From: an uncultured virus (IMG/VR IMGVR_UViG_3300018915_000003)
Lineage: Duplodnaviria > Heunggongvirae > Uroviricota > Caudoviricetes
Virus record (IMG/VR): IMGVR_UViG_3300018915_000003
Direction: 5' to 3' (one strand)
DNA length: 57,928 bases
The notes under the pieces were generated by a model that saw only the letters and a list, made by a program, of their open reading frames with translations, searched no databases and was not told the origin of the DNA. Position numbers and translations under genes: made by a program. Below are positions 29,944 to 57,928 of this stretch, piece after piece (position 1 is the stretch's first letter; the number at the start of each line of letters is the position of its first letter).

Positions 29944-30483
29944 TTATTGTAGTTTTTTGCGCTCGCTGTTGGACAGATGGCCTATCCTGTTGGGGAAGTC
30001 GAAGCCTGTTATGTGCTCGAGTATCTTCATCATGTTCTTGACCTCTGCCTCCCACTCTGCTTTGACCTCTATGCTGGACATAGGATTGCCGTCCTCGTTG
30101 GTCAGTTGGAGGCCGTCATATCTCTGTTCCTTGATTGCCTTGAGACGGAGCTTTATCTCATCCTCTAACAGTTCGGCGCGTTGTTGATGGGCTGCCTTGA
30201 CGCTATTCTTGTATGTCTGTGAGTCTTTGCCCAGTAGAAGGGGGTCTCGTTTGTGTGTCTTGGCTAAGGTGCTGATGTAATTCTCGATATGTGTCCTTAC
30301 CTCTAACTGGTGGCCATCACATAGCCAGAGCACGTCATCTGAGAAGGATTCCGAATTGTTATACCAATGAGCCCACTGGTACTCAAAGAGGCTGCCAAGT
30401 TTGCCACAGATGGCGCATGGTCGATCTTCGGGTGGTAGCCCGTCGGCGTCAGAAATGAAAAAGTTATTGTTTGGGTCGCTCAA
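29944..30483 (-). CDS. Hypothetical protein with Cys/His motif
   Basis: CAIC...LCDGH; directly downstream of the portal gene. Confidence 0.55.
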   Translation of the reverse strand: MSDPNNNFFISDADGLPPEDRPCAICGKLGSLFEYQWAHWYNNSESFSDDVLWLCDGHQLEVRTHIENYISTLAKTHKRDPLLLGKDSQTYKNSVKAAHQQRAELLEDEIKLRLKAIKEQRYDGLQLTNEDGNPMSSIEVKAEWEAEVKNMMKILEHITGFDFPNRIGHLSNSERKKLQ

Positions 30484-32372
30484 CTAGATTCAATTTTCTG
30501 TTGGATGGCCTTATATGTTGCTATTCTGGTTCGATACATTTCTTCCTTGAGTTGGTCAAGTTTGCTTTGAGTTGATGATTGGACTATTCGCTGTTGTTGT
30601 TGGGGGTTGACACCTTGTTGTTTTGTAAGGAGTTGATTCCTCAGGTTTGGTACACCTCTGTTTTGAGCCCATGCCATACCAGCCTTTGCAGCTGCAAGCA
30701 TCTCCTGTTGGGTCTGTTTGGACATATTGAGCTGAGCGCTCTGTGCATTCTTCTGTAGTTCGATGCCTCCCCTGATTTTCTCCTTTTCTAGCTCTATCTT
30801 GGACTGCTCCACTGTTTCCTTCATTATCTTGTCTCTCTCTTCATTCTTCTGGAGCTCTTCCTTGATGTCGTTGAAGCCCATCAATTCCGCAGCTTTGCCA
30901 ATGGTTATGAGTTTGTTTGTGAACAGTGGAACTATTGCCTTTGCAAGCTCATCCAGTGTCTCGAAGGTGATATTCTCGAACTCTAGCTTAATCTTCACAG
31001 GTAGCAATGAACTGAAGCCCTTACGTCCTACCATATCCTCAGCCTTGAAGCCCTTGAGGCCGGCGAATTTGATTGCAAGCAGTTTGTTCAACCACTGAGG
31101 CTCTAGTGTATCCTGGAGCATTGTCCTGTCGTTTGCAAGGTCTGAGTCCTGCCATGCCTGGAGGATTGAGTTGAGGGTTGCTCTGTTTGTTATGGCTTCG
31201 AAGCCTATCAAGGGTGAGGGTACGTTGAGAACTCTGGCAATGTATCTATCGTTTGCGTCTCTAGCGTTGATGAGTGCAATAAAGTCGCCCAACATGTTGA
31301 ACTGTTGTAGTTCTACCTCGTGGGTTGTGGCGTTCATAGTTCCTGGCTGGAATTTCCTAACAAATCTGCGGGCATCATCTGCTGATATGTCGCTCTTGAA
31401 TCTGAGCAATCCAGCGGGGGCCCATCTACTGCGAGCCATCTCTTTGATGTCTATCTCATTGAGCATCCTATTGGTCTCGGAGGTGTGTATAACACCCTCT
31501 AGGTCAGAGAGGCCGTAGTATAAGGAGTCGGGTGAGATGTGATAGTCGTGGTTAACGAAGTAAATGAGACGCTCCATAGGGAATGGGTCATTGTCTTTGC
31601 GGTCGGCATATCCTACTCCGAGCATCTTCCAGGTCTTTCTGTCGATGTAGACAGTGCCCAGCTTCTTCCAGTTGAGTATCTTGACCTCTGTGGGGATGCC
31701 TGTCTTTTTGTCTGTCTCTACTAACAAAGCGGCCCTTCCACCTACCTTGGCCTGTATCATTGCGGCCTGGGTTGCGTGGTGCATGTTGACCTTGCGGTTG
31801 ATGGAGTCGATGAATGTGAGAATGGCGTTTGATTCCTGGTCGTTGAGGTATTCGTTGATTGCTGCTACCTTATCCTCTGCAGCTGCTGGAGCAAACTCTT
31901 CGGTGATGTCTATAATGGTCTTAGTTCTACGACCTAGTGCATACTTTACAATGAGGTTGATGCACCTGCGAACTATACCATCAGCACGGTATGAGTCCTC
32001 AAACCTGAACTTATCAGCTGGCAGGTATGGGTCTGTGAGTGCGAATACTTCTCGCCCGTCTACCCATTTATCATATTCGACTACTGCTGCATTTTTGAAT
32101 TTAGCAAAAGGGTCTTGAGAATAGGCACCCTGTATCGATGCGGTGAGAAATTGCTCGCCGTATCCTCCTGTGGTATCATCGGCCTGTCTGCCCCAATATC
32201 CCTGCATGAGCATGAGGTTATAGAGGGAAGTGGGCATCTTTGGCTCTTGGTTGAGTGGAGTGATTATCTCTTCAGTTCGGTCTTTGCCGCCGTCTGACAT
32301 TACAATGGGCGGTCTATGTCTTGAGCTGGCTCTAGGAGTGGGAGCGGGAAGTTGAGGAGTATTAGAGGACAT
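30480..32372 (-). CDS. Portal protein
   Basis: 630 aa; 'IVRRCINLIV', 'VGGRAALL', 'YYGLSDLEG', 'IARVLNVPSPLIG', 'QDTLE' follow the portal motif order; near terminase. Confidence 0.85.
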   Translation of the reverse strand: MSSNTPQLPAPTPRASSRHRPPIVMSDGGKDRTEEIITPLNQEPKMPTSLYNLMLMQGYWGRQADDTTGGYGEQFLTASIQGAYSQDPFAKFKNAAVVEYDKWVDGREVFALTDPYLPADKFRFEDSYRADGIVRRCINLIVKYALGRRTKTIIDITEEFAPAAAEDKVAAINEYLNDQESNAILTFIDSINRKVNMHHATQAAMIQAKVGGRAALLVETDKKTGIPTEVKILNWKKLGTVYIDRKTWKMLGVGYADRKDNDPFPMERLIYFVNHDYHISPDSLYYGLSDLEGVIHTSETNRMLNEIDIKEMARSRWAPAGLLRFKSDISADDARRFVRKFQPGTMNATTHEVELQQFNMLGDFIALINARDANDRYIARVLNVPSPLIGFEAITNRATLNSILQAWQDSDLANDRTMLQDTLEPQWLNKLLAIKFAGLKGFKAEDMVGRKGFSSLLPVKIKLEFENITFETLDELAKAIVPLFTNKLITIGKAAELMGFNDIKEELQKNEERDKIMKETVEQSKIELEKEKIRGGIELQKNAQSAQLNMSKQTQQEMLAAAKAGMAWAQNRGVPNLRNQLLTKQQGVNPQQQQRIVQSSTQSKLDQLKEEMYRTRIATYKAIQQKIESS

Positions 32373-33727: not shown

Positions 33728-34156
33728 ATGTCATCAGATGCACAAGGGTTTGATACCCATCAGCAACAGATAGAACAAGAAAAACTAGACAAAGCAACAG
33801 CAAGCAGTACAACAACAGATCCGTTCGCACGTATAGAGAAAAGTTTGAACGCACCAACGAATTCGCCATTCCTCAAAATAGCGGCTAACACGTCTGTGGT
33901 GTTAAAGTTCGACGCCAATAAGATAAGGGAAGTCGAGCGCACCTTCGAGAATGACGGCGAAGAGAGGACAGTCAGGCGTATGGAATGCACCGTTCAGACA
34001 GAGGATGGCCAAGAGAAAACCATTGATTTTGCCTTTGGTTGGGTGAGGCAATTATTGCCACTGCTCAAAGAAGGCTTCACATGGTTCCGGGTCGAGCGTA
34101 AAGGAGAAAGGATGGAGACAAACTATACGTTTGTGCCACTTGTAAACAGAAGCTAA
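33728..34156 (+). CDS. Possible OB-fold ssDNA-binding protein
   Basis: 'PFLKI', 'FRVERKGERMETNYTF' resemble viral SSB-like proteins; judged by eye. Confidence 0.4.
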   Translation: MSSDAQGFDTHQQQIEQEKLDKATASSTTTDPFARIEKSLNAPTNSPFLKIAANTSVVLKFDANKIREVERTFENDGEERTVRRMECTVQTEDGQEKTIDFAFGWVRQLLPLLKEGFTWFRVERKGERMETNYTFVPLVNRS

Positions 34157-34632
34157 GGAACTTTTCTTCTTTCTTTTTTTGTCTTCCCTCTAAATTTTGC
34201 AGCACACCGATGACATCGATGTCCACCTTTACCATCAGAATACCAGTCGAAATATTTACCCTTCCTGAGCCTGGTGTCTTTACTGCCACAATTAGAACAA
34301 AAACGTCCACTCATATCCTTCTTCATATGCATGCTTAGATGGTCAGCATGACTGGCGAATAGCTCAAGATTCTCAATTCGGTTATCATTGGTTATGTGAT
34401 TCTTGTGGTGCACGACTTCCTGCGGCGTTAAGAACCTGCCCAGGTACTGCTCCATGACTAGGATATGCTCAAGTATATAGCCATCCATATTGGTTCGTGG
34501 ATGACCAAATGGGGCTCTCACAAGGATATAGCCACGTTTGTGTGTTTTCCTACCACCATGCCAGTTGGGATTCCTCTCGCCAGCTAGAATTGTCTCGGGT
34601 CTCCTCTTCCACCGATGACCAGTTGGAGCCAT
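34153..34632 (-). CDS. HNH homing endonuclease with C-terminal Zn finger
   Basis: 'EHILVME...VVHHKNHITNDNRIENLEL', then CSNC...CHRC. Confidence 0.85.
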   Translation of the reverse strand: MAPTGHRWKRRPETILAGERNPNWHGGRKTHKRGYILVRAPFGHPRTNMDGYILEHILVMEQYLGRFLTPQEVVHHKNHITNDNRIENLELFASHADHLSMHMKKDMSGRFCSNCGSKDTRLRKGKYFDWYSDGKGGHRCHRCAAKFRGKTKKERRKVP

Positions 34633-46172: not shown

Positions 46173-46764
46173 CCAAAAAATACGAGGTTACGGATGTAGG
46201 TAATTCGGCCGGAGCCTCTAGTCCCCACACATCCCATCCAGGCACTCTACGCCTTGCAAAGAGTTCGATCTTTGGATTCAGGTCGCGGGTAACGGATTCG
46301 ATTAGTCTCCTAAAACCTTCCGGCTTTTCGCTGTGTTTGCCGACATGAAAGGACTGGATATTTGGCTCTAAACTACGAAATGATTTAATGTCTCCCCTTA
46401 CGCCCAGAGCGAGGTGTTCGGTAAATCCCCGAAACCAGTAGCCGACGTTTTTACTCCCATCTTTTTTCCAAGTAAGCAGAGTCTTGTATTCGAATCCCCA
46501 CGCTTTGATTATCGGAAGTTGCAGGTCGAGTAAAGGATTTGTTACCCACATGAACAGAACGCAGTTTCTATCAGCAAATTTTTCCTTTACGGGTAACTTG
46601 GCAATATCTTCGAAGGACATAGTATCGTAATAATGTGCGGCGCTTATCCTGCGCTTCCCATACATGTCACTGCGCTCGCGGGATAGAGGGGGTTGATCCG
46701 ACCTGTACCGCCAAGGAGGGTCGGCGTAGATGACTTGGTACCTCTTCTCTTCCTCTTCTACCAT
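46144..46764 (-). CDS. MT-A70 family adenine methyltransferase
   Basis: 'YQVIYADPPW', 'LFMWVT', 'AWGFEYKT', 'HSEKP', 'IELFARR..PGWDVWG'. Confidence 0.92.
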   Translation of the reverse strand: MVEEEEKRYQVIYADPPWRYRSDQPPLSRERSDMYGKRRISAAHYYDTMSFEDIAKLPVKEKFADRNCVLFMWVTNPLLDLQLPIIKAWGFEYKTLLTWKKDGSKNVGYWFRGFTEHLALGVRGDIKSFRSLEPNIQSFHVGKHSEKPEGFRRLIESVTRDLNPKIELFARRRVPGWDVWGLEAPAELPTSVTSYFLGGDNNDSRK

Positions 46765-48857
46765 TCCAGTGTCTCCGCCCACCTGTATCGTTCGCCTTTT
46801 GTTTCCACTTTACCAGCACCTACACCTTCCTCCAACCACTTTGATATCTTTTCCGTTGAACCCCAGTTGTGTTTGGGTATCTCTTGCAGCTTCATCTTTA
46901 GCAACTCCTTGGTGAAGAATTTGTCAGCGTCCTCAGTCATTTTCATGGCTTCCTTGCAGGCCCAAATAAACTGTTCCTTCTGTGATTTCTCTGACACCTC
47001 TAACATCTTTTGCTCCTGTATTGTCCTCTGTGCGGGGGCGCCTTCTATCATGCCGACATCATACTGTTGTGTCTTGGGGTCGAATGCTGCTAGTGCCATG
47101 TGCTCGGTCAGCATGTTGAAGATAAACATGACATGCTCCTTTGTTGGTTGGGACTTGCCGAAGAGTCTTGCCCAGACCTGTGCAATGGAGACACAGTGCT
47201 CGACAAAGCGGGGAGTCATGACCATGCGATGTTGTTGGTTGTAGTCTCGTTTGTTGGCCAGGTAGTATTTGATAAAGTCTTCTTTGAAGTCTGGAGGCAT
47301 TGGGTCAACTGGTATCTCCTCGATGATGAACTTGATTAGCTTGCGCAGTGTTGTAACACCAAAGTATTCAACCTCAACCTCCTCGCCTGACTCTGTCTTT
47401 ATTTTCTTTGTCCAGTCGTTCTTGTAGTACTCCATAATATCGACCTGGCTGTGGTCGTAAATCCTGCCTGCAATTTCGGCTTCTTCTGCATCACTCTTCT
47501 TATCCACAACTTTGAGTATCATAGAAAACCTGCTGAGTAGTGCAGCTCTACCTTCCTTGATGAATCCCACTAACTCATGGATGTTCTGTTCGAGACCGAT
47601 GTATCCTCCTCTGGGGTTGCATAACGCCATGACAGCAGCCCTGGCGTCAAGATAGCCAACATTGCCGCCTGCTAGGGCGTAGGATATCCTTCCATCCTGG
47701 AGCACTTCCAGAAGGGCTGTAATATCTTTGGGGTCTCTTGCTTCCTGAAGGTCATCGAGCCATACTGCTGAGCCGTCGGCCATTGCAAAGATACCAGGGT
47801 GAACCATCCAGGCGTCGGAGTCGGGGTCTTTTGCTGATGTGGTTGTGAGTCCTGTAGCTCTGGCCTGTGCCATGTTGACATACCAGGAGTCTCTTAACAG
47901 AAGGGAGCCAAACTTTGCCACCTGTGACTTGCCTGTTCCTGGGTCTCCAATGATGAAGACCTTGATGGGGTGTATCAGTCCGATTGATGCTAACACCAAC
48001 AGGACGGCGTCCTTTATGATGTCGTTGCCTGCTATGTGGGGAGCTATGGAGCCTCTGAGTTTTTCGGGATATTGTGGTTGCTCCATTTCGTAGCGGAAGC
48101 GTGTTCTATCCTCGTCTGTTAACTCAAAGTCTCGCTCTGCGTCCTTCACTCTGCGGATACCAAAGACTTCGAACCAGAAGGTGAAATATCTCCGCTTGTT
48201 CTTGTCCATCATCATTTGTGAACGCACGGCACCAATAGGTCGGACTCGTTCTTTGAACTGAACAGACCACAGGTTGCCATGTCCTTGTATCCTGGCTGGT
48301 ATTGAGATAGGCACGCGTGAGATTGTTGTGTCCCTTCTGACTTCTTCTAAGCGAATCCATTGTGTGTCAATCATGTCTTCAGGTAGGACGTTCTCGACAT
48401 GTGTCGGCTCACTACATTCACATTGCCACTTTGGAGCCTTCAGTGTGACCATTCCAGGCTCTATGGGGAATTTTTTGTCCTGCCCACAGGTAAGACAGAC
48501 GGATGTGGCCTGGTATGCTTCTGGCCTGTTTGTTGAGATGCCTGTGACAACACACTCTTCTAATTCAACGGCGTGCCCCACATCCTTGACATACATATCC
48601 TTCAGGCTTACCCGAGGGAGTCCTTCGATTGGCGGTGCCCCTGCACGCTTCAGGACTTCCAAGAGGTAGACATCATCATCGCAGTTGACAAAGGTGTCCC
48701 ACTGTTCTGGGATGATGTTTTTGTGTGTGAAGTTTCTTAACGTTTCACGCGTCGGTTGCGGATGTTCTTTGAGATAGACTTCGACCTGTTGAACGTCAAA
48801 GCCTATGTCCCGCATTCGACTGCGCTTATTGGTTGTCTTTTCGTAATTCCAACTCAT
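46758..48857 (-). CDS. mcm: MCM replicative helicase
   Basis: Zn finger CLTC...CEC, 'SIAPHIAG', Walker A GDPGTGKS, 'GLTT', 'CNPRGG', arginine finger 'ALLSRF'. Confidence 0.92.
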   Translation of the reverse strand: MSWNYEKTTNKRSRMRDIGFDVQQVEVYLKEHPQPTRETLRNFTHKNIIPEQWDTFVNCDDDVYLLEVLKRAGAPPIEGLPRVSLKDMYVKDVGHAVELEECVVTGISTNRPEAYQATSVCLTCGQDKKFPIEPGMVTLKAPKWQCECSEPTHVENVLPEDMIDTQWIRLEEVRRDTTISRVPISIPARIQGHGNLWSVQFKERVRPIGAVRSQMMMDKNKRRYFTFWFEVFGIRRVKDAERDFELTDEDRTRFRYEMEQPQYPEKLRGSIAPHIAGNDIIKDAVLLVLASIGLIHPIKVFIIGDPGTGKSQVAKFGSLLLRDSWYVNMAQARATGLTTTSAKDPDSDAWMVHPGIFAMADGSAVWLDDLQEARDPKDITALLEVLQDGRISYALAGGNVGYLDARAAVMALCNPRGGYIGLEQNIHELVGFIKEGRAALLSRFSMILKVVDKKSDAEEAEIAGRIYDHSQVDIMEYYKNDWTKKIKTESGEEVEVEYFGVTTLRKLIKFIIEEIPVDPMPPDFKEDFIKYYLANKRDYNQQHRMVMTPRFVEHCVSIAQVWARLFGKSQPTKEHVMFIFNMLTEHMALAAFDPKTQQYDVGMIEGAPAQRTIQEQKMLEVSEKSQKEQFIWACKEAMKMTEDADKFFTKELLKMKLQEIPKHNWGSTEKISKWLEEGVGAGKVETKGERYRWAETLEW

Positions 48858-53472: not shown

Positions 53473-54033
53473 ATGACAGAAGAGACTAAGATATCAGAAG
53501 GTTTTAAGCGTTGTGAATGTGGATGCGGACAGGAAGTTAAAGGATATAATCATGAAACTCATCAACCTACACGGTTCAAAAAGGGACATTATTTACGGCT
53601 TCATAGTAACTCACTACATCACAATTGGAAAGGCGGAACAAGAATAACATTAGCAGGTTATAGAGTTGTATTACAAAGAGGACATCCTAGAGCAAATAGA
53701 GACGGGTATGTTTTTGAGCACATCCTAGTTAAGGAAAAAGAGATAGGACGACATATAGCAAAAAATGAAGACGTCCATCATATTAACGGCAATAAGTTAG
53801 ATAATCGCCCTGAGAATCTAGAATTGATGACAAAATCGCAACATGCTATCACTACACTTACAATAGATATGTCGAATCGTAGGTGTTCAGATTGCGGTAG
53901 CTCCGAAACCTATAGACGTGATTGGCAGAAAGACCCAATTGATAAAAATAAAATCAGATGCCATAAATGCTATATGAAATTTTACAAGTTACGACGCAAG
54001 TCTATTATTATTTCCTCGCCAGATTCTGCGTAA
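53473..54033 (+). CDS. HNH homing endonuclease, paralog of 34153..34632
   Basis: CECGCG N-terminus; 'EHILV...VHHINGNKLDNRPENLEL'; CSDC...CHKC. Confidence 0.85.
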   Translation: MTEETKISEGFKRCECGCGQEVKGYNHETHQPTRFKKGHYLRLHSNSLHHNWKGGTRITLAGYRVVLQRGHPRANRDGYVFEHILVKEKEIGRHIAKNEDVHHINGNKLDNRPENLELMTKSQHAITTLTIDMSNRRCSDCGSSETYRRDWQKDPIDKNKIRCHKCYMKFYKLRRKSIIISSPDSA

Positions 54034-54736: not shown

Positions 54737-55060
54737 CTATTGCTCGGGCACCCTGAGCTCGCTGACCCTGTTGTCCCAGAACTTGATGCGTGATGCAAGA
54801 TAATCATCAATATTCTCGGTGCCAGGATAGTTTTTGAGGTATGCCTTTGCCATCTTGAGCTCACGCATGAACAGCTTGATGTCGGCCATGTGTTGCTGCA
54901 CCGCATAGCGATGATCCTCCCGCCGCACTTGCGCTCTGTCCATTGTTGTTGGGACTTCCGACGTAGTTGCTGCATCGGGGATTATCGTGCCTGTTGTTCC
55001 CGTTGATGGTGTTGTCGTTGCTGTCGCATCATTATTTTCATTATTGTTACTGTCTGACAT
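54737..55060 (-). CDS. Hypothetical protein
   Basis: N/T-rich N-terminus and helical C-terminus; divergent from the RHH-Tas operon. Confidence 0.55.
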   Translation of the reverse strand: MSDSNNNENNDATATTTPSTGTTGTIIPDAATTSEVPTTMDRAQVRREDHRYAVQQHMADIKLFMRELKMAKAYLKNYPGTENIDDYLASRIKFWDNRVSELRVPEQ

Positions 55061-55090
55061 TCTGTATCTACTCTCTGTATATCAGACAAA

Positions 55091-55126
55091 GTATATATGC
55101 TTGTGGTATGTTTAACATGTTTAACA
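55091..55126 (+). promoter_or_regulatory. TATA box plus tandem TGTTTAACA x2 operator-like site
   Basis: GTATATAT at 55091-55098; TGTTTAACA at 55109-55117 and 55118-55126, just before ATG 55130. Confidence 0.55.
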
Positions 55127-55129
55127 GAA

Positions 55130-55408
55130 ATGCAACCTAAATCAAAAAGCAAGTCGAAAAGAATTAGGGGAAGCGATAGCAGCACTAACGCTTTCAAAAC
55201 AAGAAAGGGAAGACACATGATCCAAGACAACAGGGACACGAAAAGGGTGTTCTCTGTGTCTATGCCGAACTGGCTGGTGGACAAAATAGACGAGGAAAGG
55301 GATGACATACCGAGAAGCACCTTCATCTCAAAGATGCTCTCCACACACTTGGAGGAGAAAGAGATGTTGGAGAATGCAGTACCTGTCGGGAGGAGACAAT
55401 CAATATGA
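55130..55408 (+). CDS. Ribbon-helix-helix (CopG-like) regulator
   Basis: 'VFSVSMPNWLVDKIDEERDDIPRSTFISKML'; ATGA overlap with the next gene; alternative start at 55217. Confidence 0.8.
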   Translation: MQPKSKSKSKRIRGSDSSTNAFKTRKGRHMIQDNRDTKRVFSVSMPNWLVDKIDEERDDIPRSTFISKMLSTHLEEKEMLENAVPVGRRQSI

Positions 55409-57051
55409 CAAACGAAGAGATACGGACACTCGGCAAAGCCTATCTACAATGTCAGAGGGCCAGGGTAGGCTGTGAGTTACAGATGCAGAAGCTGATGGAG
55501 CACAGACTCATCCATGCAGGTGTAGCAACCAGGGAAATAGTAGCTGATGATGATGACGCAGGAAGGGCAGCTAACAAGTTCAAGAAGACAAAGATCATCA
55601 TACTGGATGAAAAGAAGGCAGAGAAGATCAGAGAACAGGTTCAGGAATCAAGAGAGTACAAGAACCTGGTGAAATACAAGGCATCGCTCAAGAGAGAGGA
55701 GCAGGACTTCCTATACACTGCGACACAGGTAACAGCTGATTCACCCATCTGGGAGTTTGCGAAACGTGTGAAGGGCTTCGGTGATGTGGCGGTCATGACA
55801 TCCTACACGATAATCGACACGGAACGCATTGCAGACAGCCAGAGAGTGGTCACAGCAGGCAGGGTCTGGAAATACTTGGGGCTTGTGCCAGGTCAAAGAC
55901 TAAAGTCAGGAGAGCTCGGTGGATTCAACACAACATTGAAGGGCAGGTGGTACATGATTCGCAAGAACTTGGTGATGGCCAAAGACCCATACTATGGCGA
56001 GATATACCGGGTGATGAAAGCCCTCTACAAACAAAGACCTGATCTAGTAGCAGTAAACGGCTCAACCGTAAAGGGAGGATGCGAGCACTACATTGCAGTC
56101 CCATTGGTTCCGAAGGCAAAGCCAGGCGAGCCACAAAAGCTCAACCCACAGGTGATGTCAAAGGATATGGCTAAACTAGGCCCAGCGCACTTTGTTGCAA
56201 AGTTCAGACTGGAGGCAGAACGCACAAAGATTGAGGACGAGATAGGCGACAAGATCAAGGCATTCAAGATCGACAATAAGGGCGCAAGCAAGAAGGAGAT
56301 CAAGGGAGGCGTGGATGAATTGAAGGCTGAACTTGAGCGCAGAGTCGAGGCGAAGGAGAGAGAGATCGAGGCTAACCTGCTAGACCTATTCAGACACTCA
56401 CCCAAAGACGTAGAGAAGGCAGCAGAAGAAATCAAGATACAACTTGGATACGTCGTTCACTGCCCGAAATGCAAGGACAACGTCAGCGTCGCAACAATAG
56501 AGAACGTCATGAAGAGACCAGGCTGGAACAAGTGGATTGATGAAATGTCTGGCAGATGGATGGGCAAGTTGCTCCTGTCACACGTGACAGAGATTATTGC
56601 CACAGGAGAAGGATACAGGTTCTCAAGACATGCAGACTATATCCCACCAAAGCCAGAGGATGACTACACAGCCAGGGAAGTCATAGAGAGATTCCGAGAG
56701 TCAAGGGCAAACATACTCATGCGATATATTGATGACTTTGCAGAGACAGGCAGCGCACAATCAGCAAAAGACAACCTACAGTCATGGTGGGAGACCAAGA
56801 CACATGGCATCTCAAGCGCGTCAAGAACACATCACGGACAGCAACAGCAGCAACAACACAGAGGAATTGGATACACCGGCCCAGAACTGCCATCCGACTT
56901 TGAACTTGTAGCAAGAAGGAAGCGCACAATGCAGGCACCAGAAGACAACGCACACATGAGCGAGATGGTCAACGATGACCTAGCACGGGAGGGGCTCAGA
57001 GAAGCACAACAGCACAGCCACGATGATGAAGAGGAGGAGGACTACACCTAG
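55405..57051 (+). CDS. Tas-like Nop-domain RNA-binding protein (TasA-like, related to the IS110 C-terminal domain)
   Basis: N-terminal coiled coil, 'PIWEFAKRVKGFG', 'AGRVWKYLGLVP', 'FNTTLKG', 'YYGEIY', 'RWMGKLLLSHV'; no N-terminal DEDD/RuvC domain; adjacent dual-repeat array. Confidence 0.8.
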   Translation: MTNEEIRTLGKAYLQCQRARVGCELQMQKLMEHRLIHAGVATREIVADDDDAGRAANKFKKTKIIILDEKKAEKIREQVQESREYKNLVKYKASLKREEQDFLYTATQVTADSPIWEFAKRVKGFGDVAVMTSYTIIDTERIADSQRVVTAGRVWKYLGLVPGQRLKSGELGGFNTTLKGRWYMIRKNLVMAKDPYYGEIYRVMKALYKQRPDLVAVNGSTVKGGCEHYIAVPLVPKAKPGEPQKLNPQVMSKDMAKLGPAHFVAKFRLEAERTKIEDEIGDKIKAFKIDNKGASKKEIKGGVDELKAELERRVEAKEREIEANLLDLFRHSPKDVEKAAEEIKIQLGYVVHCPKCKDNVSVATIENVMKRPGWNKWIDEMSGRWMGKLLLSHVTEIIATGEGYRFSRHADYIPPKPEDDYTAREVIERFRESRANILMRYIDDFAETGSAQSAKDNLQSWWETKTHGISSASRTHHGQQQQQQHRGIGYTGPELPSDFELVARRKRTMQAPEDNAHMSEMVNDDLAREGLREAQQHSHDDEEEEDYT

Positions 57052-57095
57052 TAGGACTCCACTCACTCTATTCCCATTTTTTTATTTTGATTTGA

Positions 57096-57928
57096 GTTGA
57101 GTCTTATTAAATCGAGAACCAAAAATAAAAAGCGAATCTGAAGAAAGTGAGAACCTGTTGGTGTCAATAATACCAGTAAGCCTATTTAATGTGTGAACCG
57201 AAAAATTAAGCGAATCGTGTAATACCGAGAACCTTGGGGGCATTTGAGCCTGTTATGTGTGAGAACCATATTAAGATGCGAGTCACAGAGAATAGAGAAC
57301 CTCTGAAAGAACACGAGCCATAATGAGGAGAGAACCTAAAACTCGAGCGAGCCTTCAATATTAGAGATCCTCCTTCAAAAGCTAGCCTATATTTATTGAG
57401 AACCCAGCTTCTTAGCGAACCAATGATCTGCGAGAGCCGTAGATGCTAGTGAGCCTTTCATGAATGAGAACCACACGGTCGTGCGAACCAAATAATTACT
57501 ATCGAGAACCTTAATGTTTAGCGAGTCACATTAAAAAGAGAGCCTTGGAAACCTACAAGCCGAAATTGATACGAGAACCCAGATGTTACGCGAGCTTGTT
57601 CAAACAAGCGAGCCTATACAAGATGCGAGCCGTATACCGTTGAGAACCGTATTAAGAAGCGAGCCATACGCCGCAGAGAACCGACCCCTTGAGCGAGCCT
57701 GACCCTACAGCGAACCGTGACCCCTAGCAAGCCTCCTCTAGTTGAGAGCCATACTTTTGAGCAAACAAGCCTAATCAAAGAGAGAATCCCATGCTAGTGC
57801 GAGCCTGGAGCCTTAGCGAACCGCTCACAAAAGCGAGCCTTGCTTGTCTGCGAACCTCCGACCAAAGCGAGCCATACGCCGCAGAGAACCGACACCCTGA
57901 GCAAGCCTAGCCCCTCTGAGAACCTTTT
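57096..57928 (+). ncRNA. TIGR-like dual-repeat guide RNA array (truncated by window end)
   Basis: Alternating 8-nt repeats NGAGAACC and AGCGAGCC (degenerate) separated by mostly 9-nt variable spacers; 17-nt half period, 34-nt unit, ~24 units; no long ORF. Confidence 0.85.

What the first reader, a model, noticed from the sequence alone, without database searches (positions are those of the whole stretch)
56040..57051. Tas-like protein has an unfamiliar ~150-aa Zn-clamped coiled-coil insertion and a C-terminal extension instead of a nuclease
Seen: between the Nop-like blocks 'YYGEIY...YKQRPD' and 'WIDEMSGRWMGKLLLSHV' lies a long insert. It is bounded by 'GCEH' and 'HCPKC', which could form one Zn site, and encloses a K/E-rich helical stretch. 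About 120 extra residues follow the fold. No RuvC (DEDD) or HNH signature is recognisable. Established: described Tas classes are Nop-only, RuvC-fused or HNH-containing. Inference: this may be a new Tas subtype whose insert recruits a partner, such as a nuclease, methylase or transcription machinery, or bridges DNA. It could act as an RNA-guided regulator rather than a cutter.
Basis: partly seen in the sequence, partly recalled or inferred. Interest (0 to 1): 0.8.

Follow-up and report, generated by a model that had tools for sequence, protein, structure and literature searches.

The report
Nuclease-free TasA with a long helical arm
This viral gene encodes a nuclease-free RNA-guided DNA-binding protein of the recently described TIGR-Tas family, unusual because a long helical arm has grown out of a small zinc-binding loop in its core.

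Summary
ORF 55405-57051 (548 aa) is a Tas protein. Its AlphaFold model matches solved TasH (Z 15.6) and TasR (Z 15.1), and a broad family profile hits TasR at E 3.5e-20. A dual-repeat TIGR array of 34-nt units starts 60 nt downstream and runs off the window.

The protein has no N-terminal nuclease domain, so it belongs to the already described Nop-only class, TasA. It is not a new subtype.

The insert is real. Between P212 and W374 there are 161 residues, against 52-54 in the three closest insert-less homologues. It sits at the published 'insertion 2' site, which is the beta-hairpin of SpTasH.

The Cys/His ligands (C226, H228, C353, C356) are not part of the novelty. They form a zinc-ribbon-like sheet shared by the 7-member clade. 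What is new is about 115 residues grafted into that loop, including an 88-residue helical arm. Only two protein clusters carry it.

The arm matches only generic helical hairpins, is about charge-neutral, and diverges twice as fast as the core. The guide unit is the same with and without the arm.

The 'C-terminal extension' is two clade-conserved helices plus an 80-residue disordered tail.

Most likely function: an RNA-guided DNA binder or roadblock. The role of the arm is unresolved.

The parts
55097..55408 (+). Small ORF (103 aa from the first ATG; a likelier start is M41 at 55217). Its stop overlaps the tas ATG by 4 nt. Possible ribbon-helix-helix protein.
   Evidence: ORF list. Similar ORFs sit in the same position in L002 (5819-6004; BLASTP E 1e-10) and L003 (978-1163). 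The nearest named ESM Atlas clusters are RHH_1-type at 0.92-0.93, which is a lead only. Pfam gave nothing.
55405..57051 (+). tasA gene: a 548-aa Nop-domain TIGR-associated protein without a nuclease domain.
   Evidence: NCBIfam NF052498 TIGR_Tas_endo, E 8.5e-17 and 61.8 bits, below its cut-off of 100. Profile A2 against PDB: TasR 9mty E 3.5e-20, TasH E 4.9e-13. Model against TasH Z 15.6 and TasR Z 15.1.
55414..55731 (+). N-terminal coiled-coil hairpin (helices aa 4-37 and 69-109) with a tip insertion of about 30 aa (aa 38-68).
   Evidence: DSSP on the AF2 model, block pLDDT 89-98 except at the tip. Aligns with the coiled coil of TasH and TasR.
55744..56055 (+). Nop core, first part (aa 114-217), including the wedge-loop region at about aa 158-175.
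   Evidence: (HMM alignments to TasH 141-226 and TasR).
56062..56100 (+). First beta-hairpin or knuckle (aa 220-232), carrying C226 and H228.
   Evidence: Strands 220-224 and 229-232. H228 is invariant and C226 is present in 5 of 7 clade members.
56101..56181 (+). Low-confidence linker (aa 233-259).
   Evidence: Block pLDDT 57-74. 29% identity to P0002.
56182..56445 (+). Helical arm (aa 260-347): helices 260-290, 296-331 and 333-347.
   Evidence: and for the insert folded alone. 20 basic against 21 acidic residues. 33% identity to P0002, against 68-69% in the core. Only generic helical hairpins match it.
56452..56508 (+). Second beta-hairpin or knuckle (aa 350-368), carrying C353 and C356.
   Evidence: Strands 350-353 and 358-368. 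C353 and C356 are invariant in A1.
56524..56655 (+). Nop core, second part: helix aa 374-401 plus the loop with H409 and Y412 (the 'RHADYIPPKP' motif), which is the candidate pre-tigRNA processing loop.
   Evidence: H409 is conserved in at least 90% of A2. It aligns with H296 of SpTasH. H296 and Y289 are given as the catalytic residues in PMC13421893 (passages seen).
56662..56802 (+). Two C-terminal helices (aa 420-448 and 451-466), conserved in the 6-member alignment.
   Evidence: They lie beyond the range aligned to TasH and TasR, which ends at residue 419-420.
56809..57048 (+). Disordered Q-rich and acidic tail (aa 469-548, net charge -9).
   Evidence: pLDDT below 50, composition, 16% identity to P0002.
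57114..57928 (+). Dual-repeat TIGR array: alternating GAGAACC and GCGAGCC cores 17 nt apart, giving 34-nt units with 10-nt spacers. The first units are degenerate, and the array runs off the window end.
   Evidence: The same architecture lies directly downstream of tas in L001 and L002.

Best explanation
ORF 55405-57051 encodes a TasA-type (nuclease-less) effector of a dual-repeat TIGR-Tas system. It is carried by a tailed virus that has an MCM helicase.

Shown:
- The fold is that of solved Tas proteins, and a 34-nt-unit TIGR array abuts the gene.
- There is no N-terminal RuvC or HNH domain.
This site is V267-S269 in TaTasR and the beta-hairpin in SpTasH.
- In this 7-member clade the site is built as two beta-hairpins carrying C226/H228 and C353/C356.
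- In two clusters only, about 115 residues have been grafted into the connecting loop, including an 88-residue three-helix arm.

Inferred:
- The four ligands bind one Zn and stiffen the hairpin. In SpTasH that hairpin sits at the DNA-unwinding junction beside the displaced strand.
- The protein dimerises through its N-terminal coiled coil.
- It cuts its own array transcript with the H409/Y412 loop and binds 10+10-nt targets on opposite DNA strands.
- Lacking a nuclease, it acts as a roadblock: a repressor, or a competitor against other mobile elements.
- The arm is a fast-evolving, charge-neutral, lineage-specific outgrowth projecting from that junction. It most likely enlarges the steric footprint or shields the junction. 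It does not carry catalysis and is not an adaptation to a different guide.
For: Family and fold:
- VIA-align on the model (pLDDT 83.3): TasH 9w04_A Z 15.6, 221 residues aligned. TasR 9mty_B Z 15.1, rmsd 2.7, 194 aligned. IS110-type recombinases score Z about 12 and Nop5/Nop56/Prp31 only 5.5-6.2.
- Foldseek's top 10 hits are all TasH or TasR.
- Profile A2 against PDB: TasR E 3.5e-20, TasH E 4.9e-13.
- NCBIfam TIGR_Tas_endo E 8.5e-17.

Array:
-.

TasA class:
- The model aligns from residue 2-4 to TasH 63 and TasR 111.
- 115 residues precede W116, against a family median of 117.
- No Pfam nuclease was found.

Site of the insert:
- In one search the gap falls between TasR P265 and E268. Xu et al. 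define insertion 2 as V267-S269 (methods passage).
- SpTasH fills the same gap with the stretch that contains T240/Q241, its beta-hairpin.

Processing loop:
- H409 aligns with SpTasH H296 (PMC13421893).

Arm is not a known domain:
- The best hits are generic hairpins. For the insert alone the best Z is 8.2 in a flat list and Foldseek E is 1 or more. ESM Atlas gave at most 0.76 by features and TM at most 0.35.

Arm is not tied to the guide:
- The window (161 aa at the site), L001 (54 aa) and L002 (72 aa) all have 34-nt units with the same repeat cores.

Arm is weakly constrained:
- 33% identity to P0002 against 68-69% in the core. Net charge is -1 here and -5 in P0002.

Published function of TasA:
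- RNA-guided DNA binding and reversible repression (10.64898/2026.09.09.750476, section 4 part 3 read).
- TasA-VPR activation (10.64898/2026.08.11.744272, passages).
Against: - The NCBIfam match is below the curated cut-off (61.8 against 100 bits) and stops at profile position 169 of 215, where the insert begins.
- No function was measured. The published repression data are for stem-loop TasA proteins, not for a dual-repeat TasA.
- Zn binding is inferred from sequence and strand topology only. I had no coordinates, so ligand distances were not checked. Two of the 7 clade members (P0005, P0007) lack the first Cys.
- The equivalent of the catalytic Tyr (SpTasH Y289) is not established. Y412 lies after the His, and Y404 is not conserved.
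- The high pLDDT of the arm rests on only two sequences that contain it.
- No target of the spacers was found in the 57 kb available, so what the system binds is unknown.
- Nothing shows that the arm has any function at all.
Confidence: 0.6

Rival explanations
1. The arm is a docking platform. It recruits a separately encoded effector, such as a nuclease, a methyltransferase, or host transcription or replication proteins, to the guide-bound site. The system would then be a split effector, not a plain roadblock.
For: In SpTasH the hairpin at this very site, together with the wedge loop, forms the docking interface for the HNH domain (PMC13421893, passages). Exposed helical hairpins are common protein-binding modules. 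A full-length homologous HNH_3 endonuclease lies within about 2 kb of the tas-array module in the window (53473-54033) and in L002 (9001-9564), at 38% identity and E 5e-39.
Against: L002's Tas lacks the long arm yet keeps the HNH_3 neighbour. The window has a second HNH_3 paralogue far away, at 34153-34632, as expected of multi-copy homing endonucleases. The HNH_3 gene lies upstream of tas in one locus and downstream in the other. The arm sequence is poorly conserved, at 33%. No partner was tested.
Confidence: 0.15
2. The arm has no specific function. It is a tolerated expansion of a surface loop by K/E-rich helix-forming sequence.
For: An intermediate exists: P0005 and P0007 carry a low-complexity K-rich expansion of about 20 aa in the same loop. 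The arm diverges about twice as fast as the core. It occurs in only 2 clusters. An unrelated K/E-rich expansion of about 100 aa occurs near the same site in P0153. Disordered, variable tails in the same proteins show a generally permissive periphery.
Against: The arm has been kept at full length, with the same helix pattern, in two proteins whose overall identity is only 56-58%. It adds about 350 nt to a virus genome.
Confidence: 0.2
3. The arms self-associate, either within the dimer to form a clamp over the DNA or between RNPs to bridge two DNA sites.
For: Antiparallel helical hairpins often pair into four-helix bundles. In TasH the hairpin of one protomer approaches the wedge loop of the other to close the DNA groove (PMC13421893).
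Against: No positive evidence from any call. The composition is charge-neutral to acidic, which does not favour contact with the DNA backbone.
Confidence: 0.05
4. The Cys/His-framed insert is a cryptic HNH-like or other nuclease.
For: A beta-hairpin with an invariant His, followed by helices and a CxxC, superficially recalls beta-beta-alpha-metal nucleases.
Against: Pfam gave no HNH or other nuclease for the insert at E up to 1. None appears among the listed fold matches of the whole model or of the insert alone. The short insert-less homologues keep the same His and Cys residues only about 15-20 residues apart, with no room for a catalytic helix.
Confidence: 0.03

Closest known systems
TasA (Nop-only TIGR-associated proteins; Faure et al. 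2025, PMC12045711; Xu et al. 2026, bioRxiv 10.64898/2026.09.09.750476)
   Same: Coiled coil plus Nop domain, no nuclease domain, and a TIGR array beside the gene. Dual-repeat TasA loci are described (PMC12045711, passage on tasParB).
   Different: It carries a segment of about 160 residues at insertion 2, where TaTasR has 3 residues, with a Cys/His zinc-ribbon-like base and a long helical arm. Xu et al. state that dual-repeat Tas proteins keep a compact Nop core (section 4 part 1). 'Zinc' does not occur in the text of that preprint, of the Science paper or of PMC13421893. The array unit here is 34 nt, against the published 36-nt guides.
SpTasH (Salicola phage CGphi29; PDB 9w04, 9w03, 21kl)
   Same: Best structural match (Z 15.6). 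It is a dual-repeat system. It has a beta-hairpin at the same insertion site. Its catalytic His (H296) aligns with H409.
   Different: SpTasH has an N-terminal HNH domain and a hairpin of about 24 residues without Cys ligands or a helical arm.
TaTasR (PDB 9mty)
   Same: Z 15.1 with rmsd 2.7 over 194 residues. Profile E 3.5e-20.
   Different: It has an N-terminal RuvC domain. It has practically nothing at insertion 2 and a 3-residue coiled-coil tip, against about 30 residues here.
Clade-specific Nop insertions of stem-loop TasR (PateTasR, CsTasR; Xu et al. 2026)
   Same: [quoted passage not shown]
   Different: Those insertions co-vary with extended tigRNA stems. Here the guide unit is unchanged between relatives with and without the arm, and the array is of the dual-repeat type.
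Archaeal Nop5 / eukaryotic Nop56/58, and IS110-family recombinases
   Same: Shared coiled-coil and Nop fold (Z 5.5-6.2 and about 12).
   Different: There is no fibrillarin-binding or DEDD domain. The scores are far weaker than for Tas proteins. The gene is associated with a TIGR array.

Membership tests
TIGR-Tas (Tas protein) | Nop-domain fold like that of solved Tas proteins | tested here: met
   TasH Z 15.6 (221 residues aligned). TasR Z 15.1 (rmsd 2.7, 194 aligned). The next families score Z about 12 (IS110) and about 6 (Nop5). Foldseek's top 10 hits are all TasH or TasR.
TIGR-Tas (Tas protein) | Sequence homology to characterised Tas proteins | tested here: met
   Profile A2 against PDB: TasR 9mty E 3.5e-20, TasH E 4.9e-13.
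TIGR-Tas (Tas protein) | Passes the NCBIfam NF052498 (TIGR_Tas_endo equivalog) curated cut-off | tested here: not met
   61.8 bits against a cut-off of 100. The match covers aa 7-212 and profile positions 2-169 of 215, and breaks at the insert. The model is named for an endonuclease, which this protein is unlikely to be.
TIGR-Tas (Tas protein) | Adjacent TIGR array with two alternating short repeats and paired spacers | tested here: met
   57114-57928: GAGAACC and GCGAGCC cores 17 nt apart, 34-nt units. Conserved downstream of tas in L001 and L002.
TasA subtype | No N-terminal RuvC or HNH domain | tested here: met
   The coiled coil starts at residue 4. The model aligns from residue 2-4 to TasH 63 and TasR 111. 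Pfam found no nuclease.
Dual-repeat Tas | Y/H processing loop in the last Nop segment (CTD5) | tested here: inconclusive
   H409 aligns with the catalytic H296 of SpTasH and is conserved in at least 90% of A2. Y412 is conserved in the clade, but its equivalence to SpTasH Y289 was not established.
TIGR-Tas (Tas protein) | Coiled-coil homodimer; guide-dependent binding of double-stranded DNA | not testable with these tools
   The helices are predicted. Dimerisation and DNA binding need experiments.
Zinc ribbon | Two beta-hairpin knuckles contributing four Cys/His ligands to one Zn | tested here: inconclusive
   Strands 220-224 and 229-232 carry C226 and H228. Strands 350-353 and 358-368 carry C353 and C356. 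H228, C353 and C356 are invariant. No coordinates were available and no metal was measured. The first Cys is missing in P0005 and P0007.
HNH / beta-beta-alpha-metal nuclease (for the insert) | HNH profile match or beta-beta-alpha-metal fold match | tested here: inconclusive
   No Pfam HNH for the insert at E up to 1. No nuclease appears among the listed matches. The fold lists are dominated by the helical part, so the small beta part is barely tested.

The most novel reading that the evidence does not exclude
The helical arm on the junction-capping Zn hairpin is a recruitment handle. It brings a trans-acting effector to the guide-bound site, for example the neighbouring HNH_3 endonuclease or a host polymerase or replisome component. 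That would make this a fourth, 'split' architecture of TIGR-Tas beside TasA, TasH and TasR, and a natural precedent for effector-tethering designs.
Probability: 0.1. Interest if true: 0.75.

Novelty: new variant of a known kind. Interest (0 to 1): 0.4.

Why it matters
TIGR-Tas proteins are being developed as very small programmable DNA binders. This protein shows that the insertion-2 hairpin sits at the DNA-unwinding junction and docks the nuclease in TasH. In nature that hairpin can carry a rigid Cys/His base and an ordered appendage of about 90 residues without any change in the guide unit. This marks a permissive grafting site and a possible natural recruitment handle.

It is also an exception to the published statement that dual-repeat Tas proteins keep a compact Nop core. 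The arm is rare, occurring in two clusters, and its function is unknown. The finding is a modest addition to a known family, not a new system.

Tried and rejected
- **Close relatives in viral contigs:** none found with P0001 or with alignment A1.
- **Genome contigs:** none with A1. No host clue was obtained.
- **GenBank phages by tblastn:** no match for P0001 or for the portal protein.
- **Own genome:** not held.
- **Rfam on 54900-57928:** no match at E up to 1.
- **ESM Atlas on aa 214-372:** best feature score 0.76, best TM 0.35. No lead.
- **Word-indexed search with the insert alone (aa 229-352):** only the query itself at E up to 0.01.
- **Self-targeting:** adjacent spacer pairs were searched in six arrangements, with gaps of 0-4 nt and up to 3 mismatches, against window 1-57050. 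There were 5 hits, all with 3 mismatches and all in same-strand arrangements, which I take as chance. Exact 10-mers: 3 of 36 spacers had one hit each, against 0.11 expected per spacer.
- **TIGR units embedded in the tas coding sequence:** none found.
- **Complex prediction with two copies of the insert (aa 214-372):** 'no answer', score 0.00, controls not run. This is not evidence either way.
- **Supplement Table S1 of PMC12045711:** the contig names of L001-L003 and five short peptide motifs of this clade were not found. The file is held cut, with 9,182 rows, so this does not show the clade is absent from the published catalogue. The supplements of the two bioRxiv preprints were not looked at, and TIGRSafari is not available here. 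They may already list this clade.
- **HNH_3 neighbour as a functional partner:** considered and down-weighted, because a second paralogue lies elsewhere in the window.
Full report
**What is there**

The finding lies in ORF 55405-57051 on the + strand, 548 aa, stored as P0001.

Pfam finds nothing significant. NCBIfam gives one match, NF052498 'TIGR-Tas system RNA-guided endonuclease', at E 8.5e-17 and 61.8 bits. This is below the curated 100 bits. The match covers aa 7-212 and profile positions 2-169 of 215, so it breaks where the insert begins.

Sixty nucleotides after the stop codon a repeat array starts. Cores GAGAACC and GCGAGCC alternate every 17 nt, giving 34-nt units with two 10-nt spacers. 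The array extends from about 57114 to the window end at 57928 and runs off it. This is the layout of a dual-repeat TIGR array as described by Faure et al. 2025 (PMC12045711, passages seen). Rfam has no match to it.

**Family**

A word-indexed search found five relatives. A profile of these six sequences, scored against 1.84 billion representatives, found 215 proteins at E up to 1e-3, 110 at up to 1e-10 and 49 at up to 1e-30.

I aligned 69 of the 154 stored proteins to make A2. I picked rows by hand. I left out short fragments, the two intein-bearing proteins P0005 and P0038, and most low-scoring rows.

The AlphaFold2 model built on A2 has mean pLDDT 83.3 and pTM 0.73. Foldseek's ten best PDB hits are all TasH or TasR chains. 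VIA-align gives these scores:
- TasH 9w04_A: Z 15.6, 221 residues aligned, model 2-419 against chain 63-308.
- TasR 9mty_B: Z 15.1, rmsd 2.7, 194 aligned, model 4-419 against chain 111-322.
- IS621 and ISCro4 recombinases: Z 11.4-12.1.
- Nop5, Nop56/58 and Prp31: Z 5.5-6.2.

The A2 profile hits TasR at E 3.5e-20 and TasH at E 4.9e-13 in the PDB sequence set. The protein is therefore a Tas protein.

The model starts directly with the coiled coil and aligns to the part of TasH and TasR that follows their N-terminal nucleases. The number of residues before W116 is 115, against a family median of 117. It therefore belongs to the Nop-only class, TasA. PMC13421893 (introduction passage) and PMC12045711 define the classes by the N-terminal architecture, and call TasA the most common class.

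**The insert**

In A1 and by hmmalign, the segment between P212 and W374 has these lengths:
- 161 aa here.
- 144 aa in P0002.
- 71-72 aa in P0005 and P0007.
- 52-54 aa in P0003, P0004 and P0006.
- 9-78 aa in most other family members.

In A2 the K205-to-H409 distance is 203 here, which is the maximum. It is 186 in P0002, 159 in P0153, 124 in P0026 and 114 in P0007. The median is 80.5 over the 68 of 69 rows that have both anchors.

H228, C353 and C356 are invariant in A1. The first Cys is present in 5 of the 7 clade members. P0005 and P0007 lack it but have a His inside their C-H-x-C.

In the model, C226 and H228 sit in the turn between strands 220-224 and 229-232. C353 and C356 sit between strands 350-353 and 358-368. 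This is the two-knuckle layout of a zinc ribbon. It is an inference: I had no coordinates, and no metal is modelled.

Between the two knuckles lie a low-confidence linker (233-259) and three helices, 260-290, 296-331 and 333-347, with block pLDDT 77-97. The same elements appear when the insert is folded alone.

So the Cys/His frame is ancestral to the clade. What is new in P0001 and P0002 is about 115 residues grafted into its loop. The short K-rich expansion in P0005 and P0007 looks like an intermediate.

**Where the insert sits in the Tas fold**

In the HMM alignment, TasR has nothing at this site...RQRP, then K266 V267 E268 S269. Xu et al. 2026 (bioRxiv 10.64898/2026.09.09.750476, methods passage) define 'insertion 2' of the Nop domain as TaTasR V267-S269.

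SpTasH fills the same gap with about 24 residues that include T240/Q241. PMC13421893 calls this the beta-hairpin. Together with the wedge loop it closes the DNA groove and docks the HNH domain. A second preprint (10.64898/2026.08.11.744272, passages) describes the element at this position as capping the displaced strand at the unwinding junction.

The window's insert is therefore an extreme expansion of insertion 2. Xu et al. write that insertion 2 is short and heterogeneous, is longer in dual-repeat Tas proteins, and that dual-repeat Tas proteins otherwise keep a compact Nop core (section 4 part 1). This protein is an outlier to that statement.

The word 'zinc' does not occur in that preprint, in PMC12045711 or in PMC13421893. 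A full-text search for tigRNA plus zinc found 5 papers, of which 4 were listed. Judged by their titles and abstract openings only, none concerns Tas structure.

**Is the insert a hidden nuclease or a known domain?**

Pfam on the insert alone gives only sub-threshold coiled-coil-type noise.

For the insert-only model (pLDDT 72.6):
- The exhaustive VIA-align search of 48,161 chains gives a flat list of helical hairpins. The best Z is 8.2, only 1 chain reaches Z 8 or more, and the matches span only model residues 43-122.
- Foldseek gives no hit below E 1.

The ESM Atlas gives nothing usable. No nuclease appears, but the small beta part is barely tested by these lists. The insert-less homologues keep the same His and Cys residues about 15-20 residues apart, which leaves no room for a catalytic helix.

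**Properties of the arm**

- It has 20 basic and 21 acidic residues in 88. The P0002 arm has 17 basic and 22 acidic. It is therefore not an obvious surface for the DNA backbone.
- Identity between P0001 and P0002 is 68-69% in the two core segments, 33% in the arm, 29% in the linker and 16% in the tail.
- The guide unit does not change with the arm. L001 (Tas of 363 aa, 54 residues at the site) and L002 (387 aa, 72 residues) have the same repeat cores and the same 34-nt period directly downstream of tas.

The arm therefore does not look like the tigRNA co-adaptations described for stem-loop TasR.

**The C-terminus**

The helix 374-401 and the loop with H409 and Y412 ('RHADYIPPKP') follow the insert. 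H409 is conserved in at least 90% of A2. In one search it aligns with H296 of SpTasH, one of the two residues given as catalytic for pre-tigRNA processing (PMC13421893). The Tyr equivalence is not settled.

Residues 420-466 form two confident helices with many invariant positions in A1. They are part of the clade's fold, not an extension. Only residues 469-548 are extra. This stretch is Q-rich and acidic (net charge -9), has pLDDT below 50, and is unconserved.

**Context**

The window carries the following:
- a phage portal protein (30483-32372, - strand)
- an MCM helicase (46761-48857, - strand)
- two DNA methyltransferases
- a winged-helix gene (for this item)
- an HNH_3 endonuclease (53473-54033, + strand)

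There are no tRNAs. The portal protein has no tblastn match in GenBank phages. This fits a tailed virus. The MCM and the DUF7352 and HTH_45 families suggest an archaeal host, but that rests on my own knowledge of those families and was not tested. Faure et al. report TIGR loci in phages and archaeal viruses.

**Mechanism**

Shown: membership of the Tas family, the TasA architecture, the adjacent array, and the site and composition of the insert.

Inferred from the solved TasH and TasR complexes and from published TasA assays:
- The protein forms a coiled-coil dimer.
- It processes its own array transcript via the His/Tyr loop.
- It recognises two 10-nt segments on opposite DNA strands.
- With no nuclease, it acts as a roadblock or repressor.
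- The Zn-ribbon base would stiffen the junction-capping hairpin.
- The arm projects from it, and I favour a steric or shielding role.

The rivals are partner docking (0.15), no specific function (0.2), self-association (0.05) and cryptic nuclease (0.03).

**Verdict**

The interpretation as a new subtype is not. This is a TasA with an unusually elaborated insertion 2, a new variant of a known kind, and of moderate interest.

Noticed in passing
window 55097-55408 (+); L002 5819-6004; L003 978-1163: A small ORF whose stop overlaps the tas start codon by 4 nt is conserved in 3 of the 4 loci: the window, L002 and L003, but not L001. BLASTP against the L002 ORF gives E 1e-10. The nearest named ESM Atlas clusters are ribbon-helix-helix (RHH_1) types at 0.92-0.93 with 150-156 shared features, which is a lead only. 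Pfam gives nothing. It could be an operon regulator or an accessory of this TasA clade.
   Followed up: partly
window 53473-54033 (+) and 34153-34632 (-); L002 9001-9564 (+): An HNH_3 endonuclease with Cys-rich ends lies 1.4 kb upstream of tas in the window. A full-length homologue (38% identity, E 5e-39) lies about 0.5 kb beyond the array in L002. A second paralogue elsewhere in the window suggests these are multi-copy homing endonucleases, not Tas partners.
   Followed up: partly
proteins P0005 (766 aa) and P0038 (713 aa): Two Tas homologues are interrupted by inteins. P0005 has precomputed Pfam intein and LAGLIDADG domains and an insertion of about 380 aa after the IWKY motif. P0038 has 439 aa at the insertion-2 region. 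L003's tas ORF is also over-long and runs off its contig.
   Followed up: no
profile hits, e.g. P0020, P0035, P0040, P0048, P0054, P0059, P0062, P0067, P0068: Many other Tas-family proteins carry a different conserved motif at the same insertion-2 site: C-P-x-Y-x-x-C followed by a basic helix, 35-50 aa in all. This is a second recurrent Cys-containing module at the site.
   Followed up: no
window 57657-57716 and 57865-57924: Two stretches of the array are 85% identical. They include an identical spacer (ATACGCCGCA) and a near-identical next spacer. This points to array growth by segmental duplication.
   Followed up: no
window 57114-57928; L001 1560-2205; L002 7160-8490: The array unit is 34 nt (7+10+7+10) in all three loci. 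The published dual-repeat guides are 36 nt. In L001 both repeats are close to GAGAACC or GTGAACC.
   Followed up: partly
L002 2708-3754 (-) and 4-1008 (-): Two genes with ParB_N domains, one fused to MT-A70, lie 2-5 kb upstream of tas on the opposite strand. Faure et al. describe ParB-like genes in operons with tasA. Here they are not in the operon.
   Followed up: no
window aa 38-68 of the Tas protein (55516-55608): The coiled-coil tip carries an insertion of about 30 aa with two short strands. TaTasR has 3 residues there. Xu et al. associate long tips with stem-loop systems, not dual-repeat ones.
   Followed up: no
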